Below are positions 34,944 through 38,118 of a DNA stretch of 64,000 nucleotides, in pieces. The position numbers and the translations under genes are program-made. The number at the start of each line of letters is the position of its first letter. Position 1 is the first letter of the stretch. The stretch is from a virus. The notes beneath the pieces are model-generated. The model was not told the DNA's origin and ran no database searches. It saw only the letters and a list, made by a program, of their open reading frames with translations. The stretch lies in the UHGV virus genome UHGV-0248979; one strand, given 5' to 3'.

Positions 34944-35978
34944 TTAGACAGCTATGGGAGCTTTAATTGTGTCGTGTGATTGATACCCAACCAATTCGAA
35001 GTCTTCGTATTTGTAATCGAAGATAGAATCAGGTTTACGTTTGATAACCAGTTTAGGTAGCGGGTAAGGTTCGCGAGTAAGTTGAAGTTTTGCCTGCTCC
35101 AGATGGTTAGAGTAAAGATGAACGTCTACACCACTATAAACCAACTCGTCTGGAACCATATTCAACTGCTGTGCAATCATGTGGGTTAGCAACGCGTACG
35201 AAGCGACGTTAAACGGCGCGCCAAGTAGGTAATCGTTGCTCCGCATCATGTAAAAACATGAAAGCTTACGGCGTGGAATACCTTCACGATCTAAAGTTTC
35301 ATGAAGACGTTCTTCATCATCAATATCTTCGTGATTAATAAGCGGTGCGCTCGCAAATTTTTCCGGCTCGTTTATTTCGTACCAATCCAGTCGCTCAAGC
35401 AGTGTCATTTCTGTAGTGTAGAATTGGAAATAGTTGTGGCATGGGTTAAGTGCCATATCGTCCAGGTCACCTACATTCCAGGCACTAACAATAATACGAC
35501 GGGAGTCAGGGTCTTCACGAAGTTGTTGGATAACTTTACTGATCTGGTCATGTGCTTTCTCATAGACCAAATACGTCGTACCATCTTCCTTCATATTCCC
35601 AATATACTTGTAACCCCGCTGCATTAGTTGTTGTGTACGTCTTACGTCATGACACTCCACAACTTTACAGTCACGCCATTCGCGCCACTGTTTACCATAA
35701 ACTGGTCCTAAGTTCCCCTCCTCGTCACTCCATTCGTTCCAAATTTTTACCCCGTTCTCTTGCAGGTACTTCACGTTAGTGTCACCATTTAAGAACCACA
35801 GCAGTTCATGAATGATACTTTTCAGGTGAACCTTTTTCGTAGTAACTAATGGGAAACCTTCTTTTAGGTCGAAACGTAGTTGGCGACCAAATACAGAAAG
35901 TGTCCCTACGCCTGTACGGTCTTTCTTGACAACACCGTTATCTAGAATGTCTTGCATTAACGCTAAATACTGTTTCAT
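34944..35978 (-). CDS. thyA: thymidylate synthase (ThyA) with two insertions
   Basis: [15 protein letters not shown]...[12 protein letters not shown]...GPVYGKQWR...[14 protein letters not shown]...[10 protein letters not shown]...HLYSNH... nearly colinear with E. coli ThyA, including the catalytic Cys. Confidence 0.9.
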
Positions 35979-36292
35979 TTGTTATTCTCCATACGTTTCG
36001 TTAAAATGTCTAAATTACGTTGCGCTTGCTCAGGACTAAAAATAATGTTTTCCTGGCTATACGTTACATGGAAATGTTTTTTGTTAACAATCTCAACCTT
36101 AAGGCCACGAACTTCGAATTGCCGTTTAGCCTCTTCAACCTTTTTTGGTGAGATTCTAAGAAGACCTGGAAATAGTTCGTCTGCAGGAACGTAGTATTTG
36201 ATTTCCTTAGTTTCGGGAATTAATTCGATCCTATCTAAACTGACGCTTATGATTTCGTCAATCTTTTTCTTTATATTGTCGTTCACAGTCAT
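35975..36292 (-). CDS. hypothetical protein, 105 aa
   Basis: ORF overlapping thyA start by 4 nt. Confidence 0.45.
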
Positions 36293-36600
36293 CAGATTTT
36301 GTCCTTTTCGAGTTCAGTTAAAATTTCAAACAGGTCTGCGTTGGACTGCAGTACGATTTCACTGCCTTCTGCTACAACAGTAATTAAAGGCTTCTTACCA
36401 CGTAGCAAGAACTCCCAACGCATTGTTCTTACGTGGCTGTCGAGTAACTGTTTTAATTTGTGGTTAACTTCAACTTCCAATTTGCCCAGTAACTGTGGTG
36501 TAATGCTTTCACCTGAGTTTTTGTTATAAAGTGTACGCACTAAAGAACGTAAAGAATAGCCAATGCACTGCGAAATTGCCCAACCCGAATAGTTTTCCAT
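36292..36600 (-). CDS. hypothetical protein, 102 aa
   Basis: ORF overlapping the next gene by 1 nt. Confidence 0.45.
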   Translation of the reverse strand: MENYSGWAISQCIGYSLRSLVRTLYNKNSGESITPQLLGKLEVEVNHKLKQLLDSHVRTMRWEFLLRGKKPLITVVAEGSEIVLQSNADLFEILTELEKDKI

Positions 36601-36601
36601 G

Positions 36602-37147
36602 TTAATCCTTCAAAATGTCTTTAAGTTTTAGTTTTGTATAGAACGGAGAACTACTTAGTTCTTCTGTCCAACTTATACGTCCGTTCTGTAGAACCCGGTC
36701 GAAGATTAGGCCGTTCATCTTTATAATTCTGGCCAATTGATAAAAGAGCGTCGCGAGATGTAGACGTCGCTCCATTTGTGCGCGAGCGGTACAACTTCGT
36801 ACCGCTTTGATAGCAAGTACCGCTTCTGGCATCAACGTAACCGCGATTGACTCAGAATGTTCGTTTTTCCATTTCTTAATGGCTAGTAGTCGGTGTAGTG
36901 ATTTTTCAAGGGGACGTAAATCCCCGTTATTCATCACGTAAACTAGAGCAGCAATATCCCACAAGGCGTTACCCACCGCTTTAGCAACAAACAACCCGTC
37001 GTGTGATGTCGTGGATTCACAGACTTTGCCAATACTTCCATAAACACGTGCAGTCCATGCGTCTGTCTGTTCGCCGGGTTTTATACCCGCGTTATCCAGA
37101 AAGTGTTTAAACGCATTAACGTGATCAGTTAACTGTATTTGTTTCAT
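36602..37147 (-). CDS. hypothetical protein, 181 aa
   Basis: ORF in operon. Confidence 0.5.
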   Translation of the reverse strand: MKQIQLTDHVNAFKHFLDNAGIKPGEQTDAWTARVYGSIGKVCESTTSHDGLFVAKAVGNALWDIAALVYVMNNGDLRPLEKSLHRLLAIKKWKNEHSESIAVTLMPEAVLAIKAVRSCTARAQMERRLHLATLFYQLARIIKMNGLIFDRVLQNGRISWTEELSSSPFYTKLKLKDILKD

Positions 37148-37161
37148 TTCCGATACCCGAT

Positions 37162-37626
37162 TTAGTCACGAGACTTTATTTTAAGGTACGCAACCGCAGC
37201 TCCCACGATTGCAATACCGGCGCCCCAACCTATCTTTTCTATTACACTCATATCGTCCCATCTTTTCTCTTCGTTACGTCGTTTGGCCTCGTCTGCCCGT
37301 TCTCTCCACATCGCTTCGCGTTCCAGACAGCTGGGATTTATTTCCTCTTCACAACGACGTTTCCGCTCTTCTTCCCTAACCAGTTCTTCTAAATAGAGCC
37401 TCGTTTCTTCCACAGCTTGTTCATAGACGTCTATGCGTTCGGGAAGAATTCTCCTGTGAGCGGCTTTGTTGCGAACGGAAGCAATCATGTGGAGTTTCCG
37501 TTCGTATTTTGGTTCGAGAAGATGAGCTATGCTTTTGGTCTTCCCATGAAGCCCATGACCGGTACCGCCGAGTTTTTCCACAAGTTCTTCTACAGAAATT
37601 GCAAGATCGAGAATATATCCACGCAT
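37162..37626 (-). CDS. HEPN-like protein with C-terminal transmembrane anchor
   Basis: Start moved to internal ATG with GGAGAAA SD (track start is TTG); ...HMIASVRNKAAHRR... fits the Rx4H HEPN motif; C-terminus IGWGAGIAIVGAAVAYLKI is hydrophobic. Confidence 0.4.
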   Translation of the reverse strand: MRGYILDLAISVEELVEKLGGTGHGLHGKTKSIAHLLEPKYERKLHMIASVRNKAAHRRILPERIDVYEQAVEETRLYLEELVREEERKRRCEEEINPSCLEREAMWRERADEAKRRNEEKRWDDMSVIEKIGWGAGIAIVGAAVAYLKIKSRD

Positions 37627-37686
37627 AATTGTTTCTCCGCTTAAACGCAGTCTTGGGAGACATAAGTCTGTTCCCAACTGTAAAAA

Positions 37687-38055
37687 TCATTTCAACAAAA
37701 CAAGATGAATTTGGTATTCGTCATCAGCAGGAGAAGAATAATCGCCAGCTTCAGGTAACGTTATATCTCCCAGTAGAGCGTGGAAGGGTAATCCACGAGC
37801 AGCCTCAACTATTCGTACAAGCGGAAAACCTGTTCTTTTAATCCAATTGTAATCAACAAACATAACACCACCAGGACTTCCCGAACCTTCCCACACACGA
37901 ATTTCCACAGTCTTTCCCGAAAAGTTGGCAAGTACGGTGCGTAGTCCTAATCGCACATAACTGGGAAAGGGTACTTCAATAACTTGTTTTGGTAAAACAA
38001 ATTCAGGGAATTTAAAACCGAAACCTTTGGGTGTACTAAAAAACTGAGCTTGCAT
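37687..38055 (-). CDS. hypothetical protein, 122 aa
   Basis: ORF preceded by CCCTAAAGGAG. Confidence 0.5.
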   Translation of the reverse strand: MQAQFFSTPKGFGFKFPEFVLPKQVIEVPFPSYVRLGLRTVLANFSGKTVEIRVWEGSGSPGGVMFVDYNWIKRTGFPLVRIVEAARGLPFHALLGDITLPEAGDYSSPADDEYQIHLVLLK

Positions 38056-38087
38056 GATAATTCTCCTTTAGGGTAAAAAATGAAAAT

Positions 38088-38113
38088 ACCCTACTCCTGT
38101 CTAGGAGTAGGGT
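38088..38113 (-). terminator. intrinsic terminator hairpin
   Basis: accctactcct / gtcta / ggagtagggt; T-run follows on minus strand. Confidence 0.55.
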
Positions 38114-38118
38114 AGGTA

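What the first reader, a model, noticed from the sequence alone, without database searches (positions are those of the whole stretch)
37162..37626. HEPN-like Rx4H motif protein with a C-terminal membrane anchor
Seen: ...KLHMIASVRNKAAHRRILPER... contains R-N-x-x-A-H (Rx4H) inside a predicted helical region, and the protein ends in a hydrophobic stretch (IGWGAGIAIVGAAVAYLKI). Established: Rx4-6H is the catalytic signature of HEPN RNases found in abortive-infection, toxin-antitoxin and CRISPR accessory proteins. Inference: a membrane-tethered HEPN RNase or HEPN decoy encoded by the phage. The motif is short, so this is tentative.
Basis: partly seen in the sequence, partly recalled or inferred. 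Interest (0 to 1): 0.55.

Follow-up and report, generated by a model that had tools for sequence, protein, structure and literature searches.

The report
Membrane-anchored HEPN-type RNase, jumbo phage
A small gene of a giant, persistently infecting enterobacterial phage encodes a protein whose front half has the fold and conserved catalytic motif of HEPN RNA-cutting enzymes and whose end is a membrane anchor; it belongs to a large, unstudied family of such membrane-tethered proteins, and its activity has never been tested.

Summary
Window 37162-37626 (-) is a real 154-aa gene (ATG, GGAGA Shine-Dalgarno, dN/dS about 0.3). It has R52-N-K-A-A-H57 and a C-terminal hydrophobic helix (residues 132-150). 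The bare Rx4-6H motif means nothing by itself, since 39 of 68 window ORFs have one.

- **Motif conservation:** R, N and H are invariant in the phage clade and 97-98% conserved in 343 remote homologues.
- **Fold:** the N-terminal 90 residues model at pLDDT 96.8 as a four-helix bundle with the motif at the end of helix 3, the canonical HEPN position.
- **Pfam matches:** the weak hits are almost all HEPN families, DUF4145 most often. The closest non-clade relative passes the HEPN_RiboL-PSP threshold.
- **Membrane anchor:** about 70% of family representatives carry TM segments after the domain, most often a single C-terminal tail anchor.

The gene sits in a variable, fast-diverging slot of a Seoul-like "persistent" jumbo phage.

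Best reading: a tail-anchored, probably dimeric HEPN RNase acting at the inner face of the membrane, probably a conflict or persistence gene. RNase activity and biological role are untested. I file it as a new variant of a known kind, of moderate interest.

The parts
37162..37626 (-). CDS of the 154-aa tail-anchored HEPN-like protein (stop codon included)
   Evidence: Translation. 57 homologues share the same start. dN/dS is 0.28-0.36 over the N-domain between diverged forms.
37634..37638 (-). Shine-Dalgarno-like GGAGA, 7 nt upstream of the ATG
   Evidence: Read directly from the sequence.
37342..37626 (-). N-terminal HEPN-like four-helix domain (residues 1-95; helices 2-18, 25-32, 39-58, 65-95)
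37456..37473 (-). R52-N53-K54-A55-A56-H57, predicted catalytic Rx4H motif at the C-terminal end of helix 3
   Evidence: Codons CGC AAC AAA GCC GCT CAC. Invariant in the clade. R 97%, N 98% and H 98% in remote homologues. The position matches the HEPN canon.
37537..37569 (-). G20-G-T-G-H-G-L-H27-G-K29-T30: second family signature (consensus GAxGxGLHEK), in the loop and short helix 2
   Evidence: G20, G23, G25, H27 and K29 are invariant in the clade. They are 83-98% conserved in the wider family.
37243..37341 (-). Highly charged E/R/K-rich helical linker (residues 96-128), variable in length between clade members
   Evidence: Predicted helical at low confidence. Charge counts. Length classes 136, 154 and 175-191 aa differ only here and in the TM.
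37177..37233 (-). C-terminal hydrophobic helix IGWGAGIAIVGAAVAYLKI (residues 132-150), predicted tail anchor, followed by KSRD
   Evidence: Hydropathy 1.66. 105 of 146 family representatives have TM-like segments after the domain, 52 of them as a C-terminal tail anchor.
37687..38055 (-). Upstream 122-aa gene, clade-specific, co-varying with the HEPN-TM gene. A possible partner; this is inference only.
   Evidence: No hit in Pfam, PHROGs or the phage collection. An unrelated gene occupies this slot in Seoulvirus. 58% identity against 95% for the flanking p219 in L009.
36602..37147 (-). Downstream 181-aa gene (N-part of phrog_10269), third member of the divergence hot spot
   Evidence: 40% identity in L009 against 97% for the next gene. 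Its start overlaps the HEPN-TM stop in L009.
38087..38114 (-). Terminator-like hairpin (12-bp stem plus T-run) between the conserved 219-aa gene and the 122-aa gene
   Evidence: Consensus scan. Function not shown.

Best explanation
The gene encodes a tail-anchored HEPN-type ribonuclease. The N-terminal 90-95 residues form a minimal HEPN four-helix bundle that faces the cytoplasm. R52, N53 and H57 at the end of helix 3, with invariant E13 and the GxGLH(E)K loop, would form a metal-independent RNase site. As in other HEPN enzymes, that site is expected to be completed by homodimerisation. A charged helical spacer of variable length and a single C-terminal transmembrane helix (small-xxx-small rich, so able to pair) hold the domain at the inner face of the cytoplasmic membrane. 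The gene is an accessory gene in a variable, fast-evolving slot of a Seoul-like jumbo phage that persists in its hosts. Its most likely use is in conflict: cleaving RNA at the membrane to exclude or abort competing phages, or to restrain the infected cell. Shown here: a real gene under purifying selection, the HEPN-like fold, motif position and conservation, a family-wide membrane anchor, and the variable-slot location. Inferred: RNase activity, dimerisation, topology and biological role. My confidence is about 0.85 that it is a HEPN-superfamily domain on a membrane anchor, about 0.55-0.6 that it is an active RNase, and about 0.3 that the role is inter-phage competition or abortive infection specifically.

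For: Motif. RNKAAH lies at the end of helix 3, which is the HEPN canon, and N follows R. It is invariant in the clade and 97-98% conserved in remote relatives.

Sequence. The protein hits DUF4145 at E 0.01-0.04. 18 of 36 family domains hit DUF4145, 8 RiboL-PSP HEPN, 3 HepT, 2 Apea, 2 Cthe2314 and 2 Swt1. P0058, 53% identical, passes HEPN_RiboL-PSP at 35.6 bits against a cutoff of 28.4. DUF4145 is a divergent HEPN, and in RAZR it is an R/H-dependent RNase.

Membrane. Tail-anchor or TM segments follow the domain in 105 of 146 representatives. Tandem-domain members exist, which fits function as a dimer.

Accessory and conflict character. The slot holds unrelated genes in Seoulvirus and Derbicusvirus. 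There is a local divergence hot spot. Relatives sit on a lambdoid-like prophage next to a lipoprotein in the tail-fibre moron region, on a ColE1-like plasmid contig, and in a Salmonella island with a P4-type primase, RelA/SpoT and an R-M system. Prophage-encoded HEPN defence RNases are an established precedent: Tha and HepS (PDB 9oik). The host phage belongs to the persistent jumbo phages found in bacterial isolates.
Confidence: 0.58

Rival explanations
1. Same molecule, a membrane-tethered active HEPN RNase, but used for the phage's own programme rather than for defence. It could shut off or trim host mRNAs and tRNAs at the membrane. It could instead throttle translation so that the infection stays slow and persistent (carrier state).
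For: The phage clade is found as 221-226 kb contigs in isolate assemblies and as a 'plasmid', and Seoul-like phages are reported as persistent. The gene is present at a fixed position in every clade member seen. Most bacterial homologues are solitary genes outside defence islands, which fits the 'stimulus-dependent RNA degradation' idea of Anantharaman et al..
Against: Related Seoulvirus and Derbicusvirus phages lack it, so it is not needed for the basic infection cycle. The fast local divergence is more typical of conflict genes than of housekeeping ones. There are no expression-timing data.
Confidence: 0.22
2. A non-catalytic HEPN-like module: a membrane-anchored binding or scaffold domain, or a decoy or poison subunit that pairs with and inhibits a host HEPN defence nuclease.
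For: Many HEPN domains are non-enzymatic, for example the NTase-associated forms and MtlR. The domain is minimal, and E28 of the family's LHEK signature is Gly in this phage. No toxicity-neutralising partner gene is evident.
Against: R, N and H are invariant in the clade and 97-98% conserved over hundreds of distant relatives, and non-catalytic HEPN lineages typically lose them. dN/dS of about 0.3 shows constraint on the whole domain. No similarity to any specific host HEPN defence protein.
Confidence: 0.12
3. Not a HEPN relative at all: a generic small helical bundle in which RNxxxH is conserved for another reason (for example metal or ligand binding), attached to a membrane anchor.
Against: Three independent lines converge on HEPN. 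First, many different HEPN Pfam models and essentially no competing family recur. Second, HEPN proteins top both structure searches. Third, the motif sits exactly at the helix-3 terminus with the polar residue after R. A 53%-identical relative passes a curated HEPN threshold.
Confidence: 0.08

Closest known systems
DUF4145-like HEPN domains (Pfam PF13643, clan CL0291), including RAZR/PD-T7-4
   Different: Scores stay below the DUF4145 gathering threshold (at most 22.7 bits for any member tested). The family has an extra GAxGxGLHEK signature. There is no zinc finger. The anchor is a C-terminal TM, not a soluble 24-mer ring. The gene is phage-encoded rather than a host defence gene.
Membrane-associated HEPN groups of Anantharaman et al. 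2013 (Biol Direct 8:15)
   Same: The concept is the same: a cytoplasmic HEPN domain of an inner-membrane protein, proposed to cleave RNA at the membrane. Their third group has an N-terminal HEPN followed by TM helices and a Zn ribbon, from a planctomycete. The family found here is rich in planctomycete members, and 7 of 146 representatives carry Zn-ribbon-like CxxC pairs.
   Different: The commonest architecture here, and the one in the phage, is a single C-terminal tail anchor with almost nothing outside the membrane. That is not one of the three architectures described.
Phage- and prophage-encoded HEPN defence RNases: Tha (S. aureus phages) and HepS (Salmonella Gifsy-1)
   Different: There is no detectable sequence similarity. 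Tha and HepS are soluble proteins of about 220-300 aa with sensor regions that bind tail proteins. The protein here has no sensor domain apart from the linker and TM, and it sits in a virulent-type jumbo phage.
HepT toxins of MNT-HEPN (MntA-HepT) toxin-antitoxin systems
   Same: They are the best Foldseek matches (5yep, 6m6u, 7bxo; TM 0.55-0.63) and are small, dimeric, metal-independent RNases with Rx4H at the helix-3 end.
   Different: There is no adjacent MNT antitoxin and no AMPylation tyrosine context. The domain is shorter. This protein is membrane-anchored.
PICI 'HEPN-TM' defence system (Fillol-Salom et al. 2022), known to me only from citations and memory
   Same: It combines a HEPN RNase with a transmembrane component on a mobile element for anti-phage defence.
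   Different: As I recall it is a two-gene system. The relationship is therefore untested.

Membership tests
HEPN superfamily (Pfam clan CL0291 / Anantharaman 2013) | Four-helix up-down bundle made of two alpha-hairpins | tested here: met
HEPN superfamily (Pfam clan CL0291 / Anantharaman 2013) | Rx4-6H motif at the end of helix 3 or the start of the loop to helix 4, with a polar residue (N/D/H) after R | tested here: met
   R52-N53-x3-H57 occupies the last turns of helix 39-58. Conservation is 97-98%.
HEPN superfamily (Pfam clan CL0291 / Anantharaman 2013) | Second conserved acidic residue upstream (Ex3[KR], in helix 2) | tested here: inconclusive
   E13 is invariant in the clade alignment, invariant in the 62- and 36-sequence alignments, and 80% conserved across the wider set of representatives. 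E14-x3-K18 exists. Both lie in helix 1 of the model, not helix 2. E28 of the LHEK signature is Gly in this phage.
HEPN superfamily (Pfam clan CL0291 / Anantharaman 2013) | Homodimer with a composite active site, and metal-independent RNase activity | not testable with these tools
   Only monomer prediction is available. Tandem-domain relatives are indirect support.
Pfam DUF4145 (PF13643), strict membership | Score at or above the gathering threshold of 23.1 bits | tested here: not met
   14.5 bits for the full-length protein and 16.3 bits for the N-domain. The best family member tested reaches 22.7 bits. I therefore call it DUF4145-like, not a DUF4145 member.
Pfam HEPN_RiboL-PSP (PF18735) | Score at or above the gathering threshold of 28.4 bits | tested here: not met
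   The window protein has no hit. The relative P0058 passes at 35.6 bits, helped by its two tandem domains, and 8 of 36 family domains hit weakly.
Known anti-phage defence families (PADLOC-DB v2) | Match to a defence-system protein model | tested here: not met
   No hit for the protein. Among 62 family members there are only sporadic hits at about 1e-4 to Cas13b or CARF-HEPN.
Tail-anchored inner-membrane proteins | A single TM helix within about 25 residues of the C-terminus, with the N-terminal domain in the cytoplasm | tested here: inconclusive
   The hydrophobic 19-mer 132-150 scores 1.66 and is followed by 4 residues. 52 of 146 relatives share this layout. Insertion and topology have not been measured.

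The most novel reading that the evidence does not exclude
The phage protein may be the first recognisable viral member of a large family that has no Pfam, PHROG or PADLOC model of its own. That family has at least 343 clusters at 50% identity, and its members are single-gene, tail-anchored HEPN RNases. On this reading it forms a new class of membrane-localised RNA-targeting conflict effectors. In nucleus-forming persistent jumbo phages it would police the membrane-proximal cytoplasm. There it would destroy RNA of superinfecting phages at their entry site, or enforce the slow carrier state, while the phage's own genome is shielded in the phage nucleus. The co-diverging 122-aa and 181-aa neighbours would act as its regulator or immunity partners.
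Probability: 0.15. Interest if true: 0.7.

Novelty: new variant of a known kind. Interest (0 to 1): 0.45.

Why it matters
HEPN RNases are central effectors of CRISPR type III and VI systems, toxin-antitoxin systems and abortive-infection systems. Membrane-tethered versions were predicted in 2013 but have not been studied experimentally, as far as I could find.

This finding gives a compact 154-aa candidate in culturable enterobacterial hosts. It also defines the family around it: the consensus GAxGxGLHEK...RNKxxHE followed by a C-terminal anchor. That family is absent from Pfam, PHROGs and PADLOC as a family of its own.

If the protein is active, it would show how an RNase can be spatially restricted. 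It could also bear on how 'virulent' jumbo phages persist in bacterial isolates or exclude rivals.

If it is inactive, it is one more small phage ORF carrying a HEPN-like fold.

Tried and rejected
**Searches that returned nothing**
- Megablast of the 3-kb region and tblastn of the protein against 50,697 phage records found no match. The gene is absent from isolated, deposited phages.
- PHROGs, NCBIfam and PADLOC gave no meaningful hit for the protein.
- PDB sequence searches with the clade profile and the family profile returned only chance-level hits.
- BFVD viral structure search returned nothing below E 0.08.
- tblastn of the 122-aa neighbour against phages found no match.

- The afdb50 library was not available.
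- The Fillol-Salom 2022 HEPN-TM paper is not held, so that comparison rests on memory.

**Scans with thin returns**
- The genome-contig scan with A2 found only two distant loci.
- An exact-pattern scan for GATG[RK]GLHEK in IMG/VR gave 0 hits. A second pattern, IA[ST][IV]RNKxxHE, gave 2.

**Ideas considered and rejected**
- The syntenic 139-aa Seoulvirus gene is not a diverged homologue: no alignment at all.
- The gene does not start at the upstream TTG: all homologues start at MR..., and the Shine-Dalgarno sequence precedes the ATG.
- A conserved antitoxin or partner across the wider family is not supported: neighbours differ in every bacterial context examined.

Full report
**1. The gene.** The ATG at 37626 is preceded by GGAGA with a 7-nt spacer. 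Pairwise dN/dS over the first 85 codons is 0.28-0.36 between the diverged forms. This is a protein-coding gene under purifying selection.

**2. The motif alone is not evidence.** Rx4-6H occurs in 39 of 68 window ORFs of at least 100 aa, and RNxxxH in 4. What matters is conservation and structural position. In the clade alignment R52, N53, K54 and H57 are invariant, along with E13, G20-G23, G25, L26, H27, K29, T30 and S32.

**3. Remote relatives.** A profile of the N-terminal 90 residues was searched against 1.84 billion cluster representatives. It found 343 proteins at E<=1e-3. The top 150 give the consensus lE.LLeklGAtGRGLHEK.sSVE..Lp..lvkKLRfIATiRNKavHE, with R 97%, N 98% and H 98%.
- The family has no Pfam family of its own. 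The protein itself scores 14.5-16.3 bits on DUF4145, against a threshold of 23.1.
- 18 of 36 family domains hit DUF4145 at E<=0.1. Among the other recurring matches are the HEPN models RiboL-PSP (8), HepT (3), Apea (2), Cthe2314 (2) and Swt1 (2). Two non-HEPN models also recur, Fe_dep_repr_C (4) and DUF3644 (3).
- The closest relative outside the clade is P0058, 53% identical. It passes the HEPN_RiboL-PSP gathering score (35.6 against 28.4 bits). It also touches DUF4145, Swt1, MAE_28990, Abi_2, Ymh and Las1, all HEPN families.
- NCBI already names some members 'DUF4145 domain-containing protein'.
- DUF4145 is a divergent HEPN family, and in RAZR it is an R/H-dependent RNase.

**4. Structure.** AlphaFold2 gives the N-terminal domain at pLDDT about 90 in the full-length model and 96.8 (pTM 0.86) with the deeper family alignment.
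- The helices are 2-18, 25-32, 39-58 and 65-89/95. RNKAAH occupies the last turns of helix 3, and the loop to helix 4 follows. Anantharaman et al. place the HEPN motif exactly there.
- Foldseek with the domain-only model puts HepT/HEPN toxins, 1wwp, 2hsb and Csm6 in its first 13 places, with probability up to 0.93. Its E-values (0.25 or worse) are not significant on their own.

**5. The membrane anchor.** Residues 132-150 (IGWGAGIAIVGAAVAYLKI) have a mean hydropathy of 1.66 and are followed by only KSRD. The segment before them is an extremely charged, predicted-helical spacer.
- Within the clade the spacer and the TM are the variable parts. The length classes are 136, 154 and 175-191 aa, and the 136-aa form has a different TM sequence. 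The hydrophobic end is always kept.
- Among 146 remote representatives, 52 have one TM within 25 residues of the C-terminus. A further 22 have one TM with a longer tail, 31 have two or more TMs after the domain, 3 have a TM before it, and 38 have none by my crude threshold. That threshold missed at least P0071.
- Tail-anchored HEPN is thus the modal architecture of the family.
- Several members carry two tandem domains, as expected if the functional unit is a HEPN dimer.

**6. Genomic setting.** The window is a phiKZ/SPN3US-type jumbo phage. It has split multisubunit RNAP beta genes, a tail sheath gene and a UvsX-like gene.
- Close relatives occur as 221-226 kb contigs in Salmonella, Shigella and E. 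coli assemblies. One is a 222-kb circular 'plasmid' of Enterobacter ludwigii, and four are IMG/VR genomes.
- This matches the Seoul-like 'persistent virulent jumbo phages' described in bioRxiv 10.1101/2024.12.31.630880.
- In every clade member the order is p219 - p122 - HEPN-TM - p181 - p102 - p105 - ThyA.
- Seoulvirus Lh1B and Derbicusvirus CR5 keep p219. Lh1B also keeps the phrog_10269 gene, which is p181 and p102 as a single ORF there. The two genes in between are unrelated to p122 and HEPN-TM.
- Against the E. coli element L009, amino-acid identity drops from 95% (p219) to 58% (p122), about 53% (HEPN-TM; 70% over its N-domain) and 40% (p181). It then returns to 97-98%.
- The gene therefore lies in a variable, fast-diverging three-gene patch. 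A terminator-like hairpin (38087-38114) separates that patch from p219.

**7. Contexts of remote relatives.**
- A lambdoid-like 71-kb viral contig carries a 138-aa member among tail-fibre-region morons near a lipoprotein gene.
- A second viral contig has a member next to a lipoprotein ORF.
- P0058 lies on a 3.6-kb contig with Rop, which indicates a ColE1-type plasmid.
- A Salmonella member lies in an island with a DUF3987 primase, RelA/SpoT, NA37 and an Eco29kI R-M system.
- Pseudomonas and planctomycete members are solitary genes in unremarkable neighbourhoods.
- There is no conserved partner gene and no PADLOC hit.
- Mobile-element association is therefore real for the nearer relatives. A defence role is not established for the family.

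**8. Mechanism.** I commit to a tail-anchored, dimeric, metal-independent HEPN RNase acting at the cytoplasmic face of the inner membrane.
- The fold, the motif and the anchor are shown, at the level of prediction and conservation.
- Catalysis, dimerisation, topology and targets are inferred from the HEPN literature.
- The variable-slot location, the divergence hot spot, the mobile-element relatives and the precedents of Tha and HepS make inter-phage competition or abortive infection the most likely role.
- The main alternative is control of host translation during persistent infection.
- A non-catalytic role is less likely given the near-universal retention of R, N and H.

**9. Comparison and novelty.** Membrane-associated HEPN domains were predicted in 2013, and DUF4145 was listed there as occurring in dsDNA viruses and fused to TM segments. 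The kind is therefore known. The following points are new:
- a distinct, large subfamily with its own GAxGxGLHEK signature;
- a tail-anchor architecture that is not among the three described;
- its presence in a nucleus-forming-type persistent jumbo phage;
- the lack of any family-level Pfam, PHROG or PADLOC model.

I rate it a new variant of a known kind, with interest about 0.45. It is a sound, testable lead rather than a surprise.

Noticed in passing
whole window; L001 (NZ_CP134650.1): The window is a Seoul-like phiKZ-type jumbo phage. Its relatives turn up as 221-226 kb contigs in Salmonella, Shigella and E. coli isolate assemblies. One is deposited as a circular 222-kb 'plasmid unnamed1' of Enterobacter ludwigii, which is probably a mis-filed persistent phage genome (compare bioRxiv 10.1101/2024.12.31.630880).
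   Followed up: partly
window 36602-38055 (-) versus L009 5569-6953: A three-gene divergence hot spot. p122, HEPN-TM and p181 are 58%, about 53% and 40% identical to the E. coli element, while the flanking genes are 95-98% identical. This suggests a swapped or fast-evolving module. In L009 the HEPN-TM stop overlaps the p181 start.
   Followed up: partly
window 36292-37147 (-): The phrog_10269 gene is a single 286-aa ORF in Seoulvirus Lh1B. In this clade it is split into 181-aa and 102-aa ORFs separated by 1 nt. The function of the family is unknown.
   Followed up: partly
window 38087-38114 (-): A strong terminator-like hairpin with a 12-bp stem, 6 G-C pairs and a T-run. It lies right after the conserved 219-aa gene and 30 nt before the 122-aa gene, and could mark a transcription-unit boundary.
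   Followed up: no
L011/L012 7760-9073; window 34944-35978: Thymidylate synthase is intact here at 344 aa, which is long for a ThyA and contains insertions. In two Salmonella-derived contigs of the same phage clade it is called as two ORFs of 254 and 95 aa with a gap of about 260 bp. That could be a frameshift, a pseudogene or an inserted element.
   Followed up: no
L026 (3.6-kb contig, GCA_025522155.1): The closest non-clade relative (P0058) has two tandem HEPN-like domains. It sits on a small contig with a Rop gene, which indicates a ColE1-type plasmid. The ORF runs off the contig end, so its C-terminus is unknown and the duplication could in part be an assembly wrap-around.
   Followed up: partly
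L025 4659-6241 and L024 10970-11861: In two unrelated IMG/VR contigs the 137-138-aa family members lie beside lipoprotein genes (phrog_890, or an ORF with an LAGC lipobox). In L025 this is within the tail-fibre region of a lambdoid-like prophage, a typical location for superinfection-exclusion morons.
   Followed up: partly
L007/L008 (Salmonella Claibornei): The family member P0071 heads a run of six co-directional small or unknown genes. The run lies inside an island with a P4-type primase (DUF3987), a RelA/SpoT-domain gene, NA37 and an Eco29kI R-M system, so it may be an uncharacterised defence cassette.
   Followed up: no
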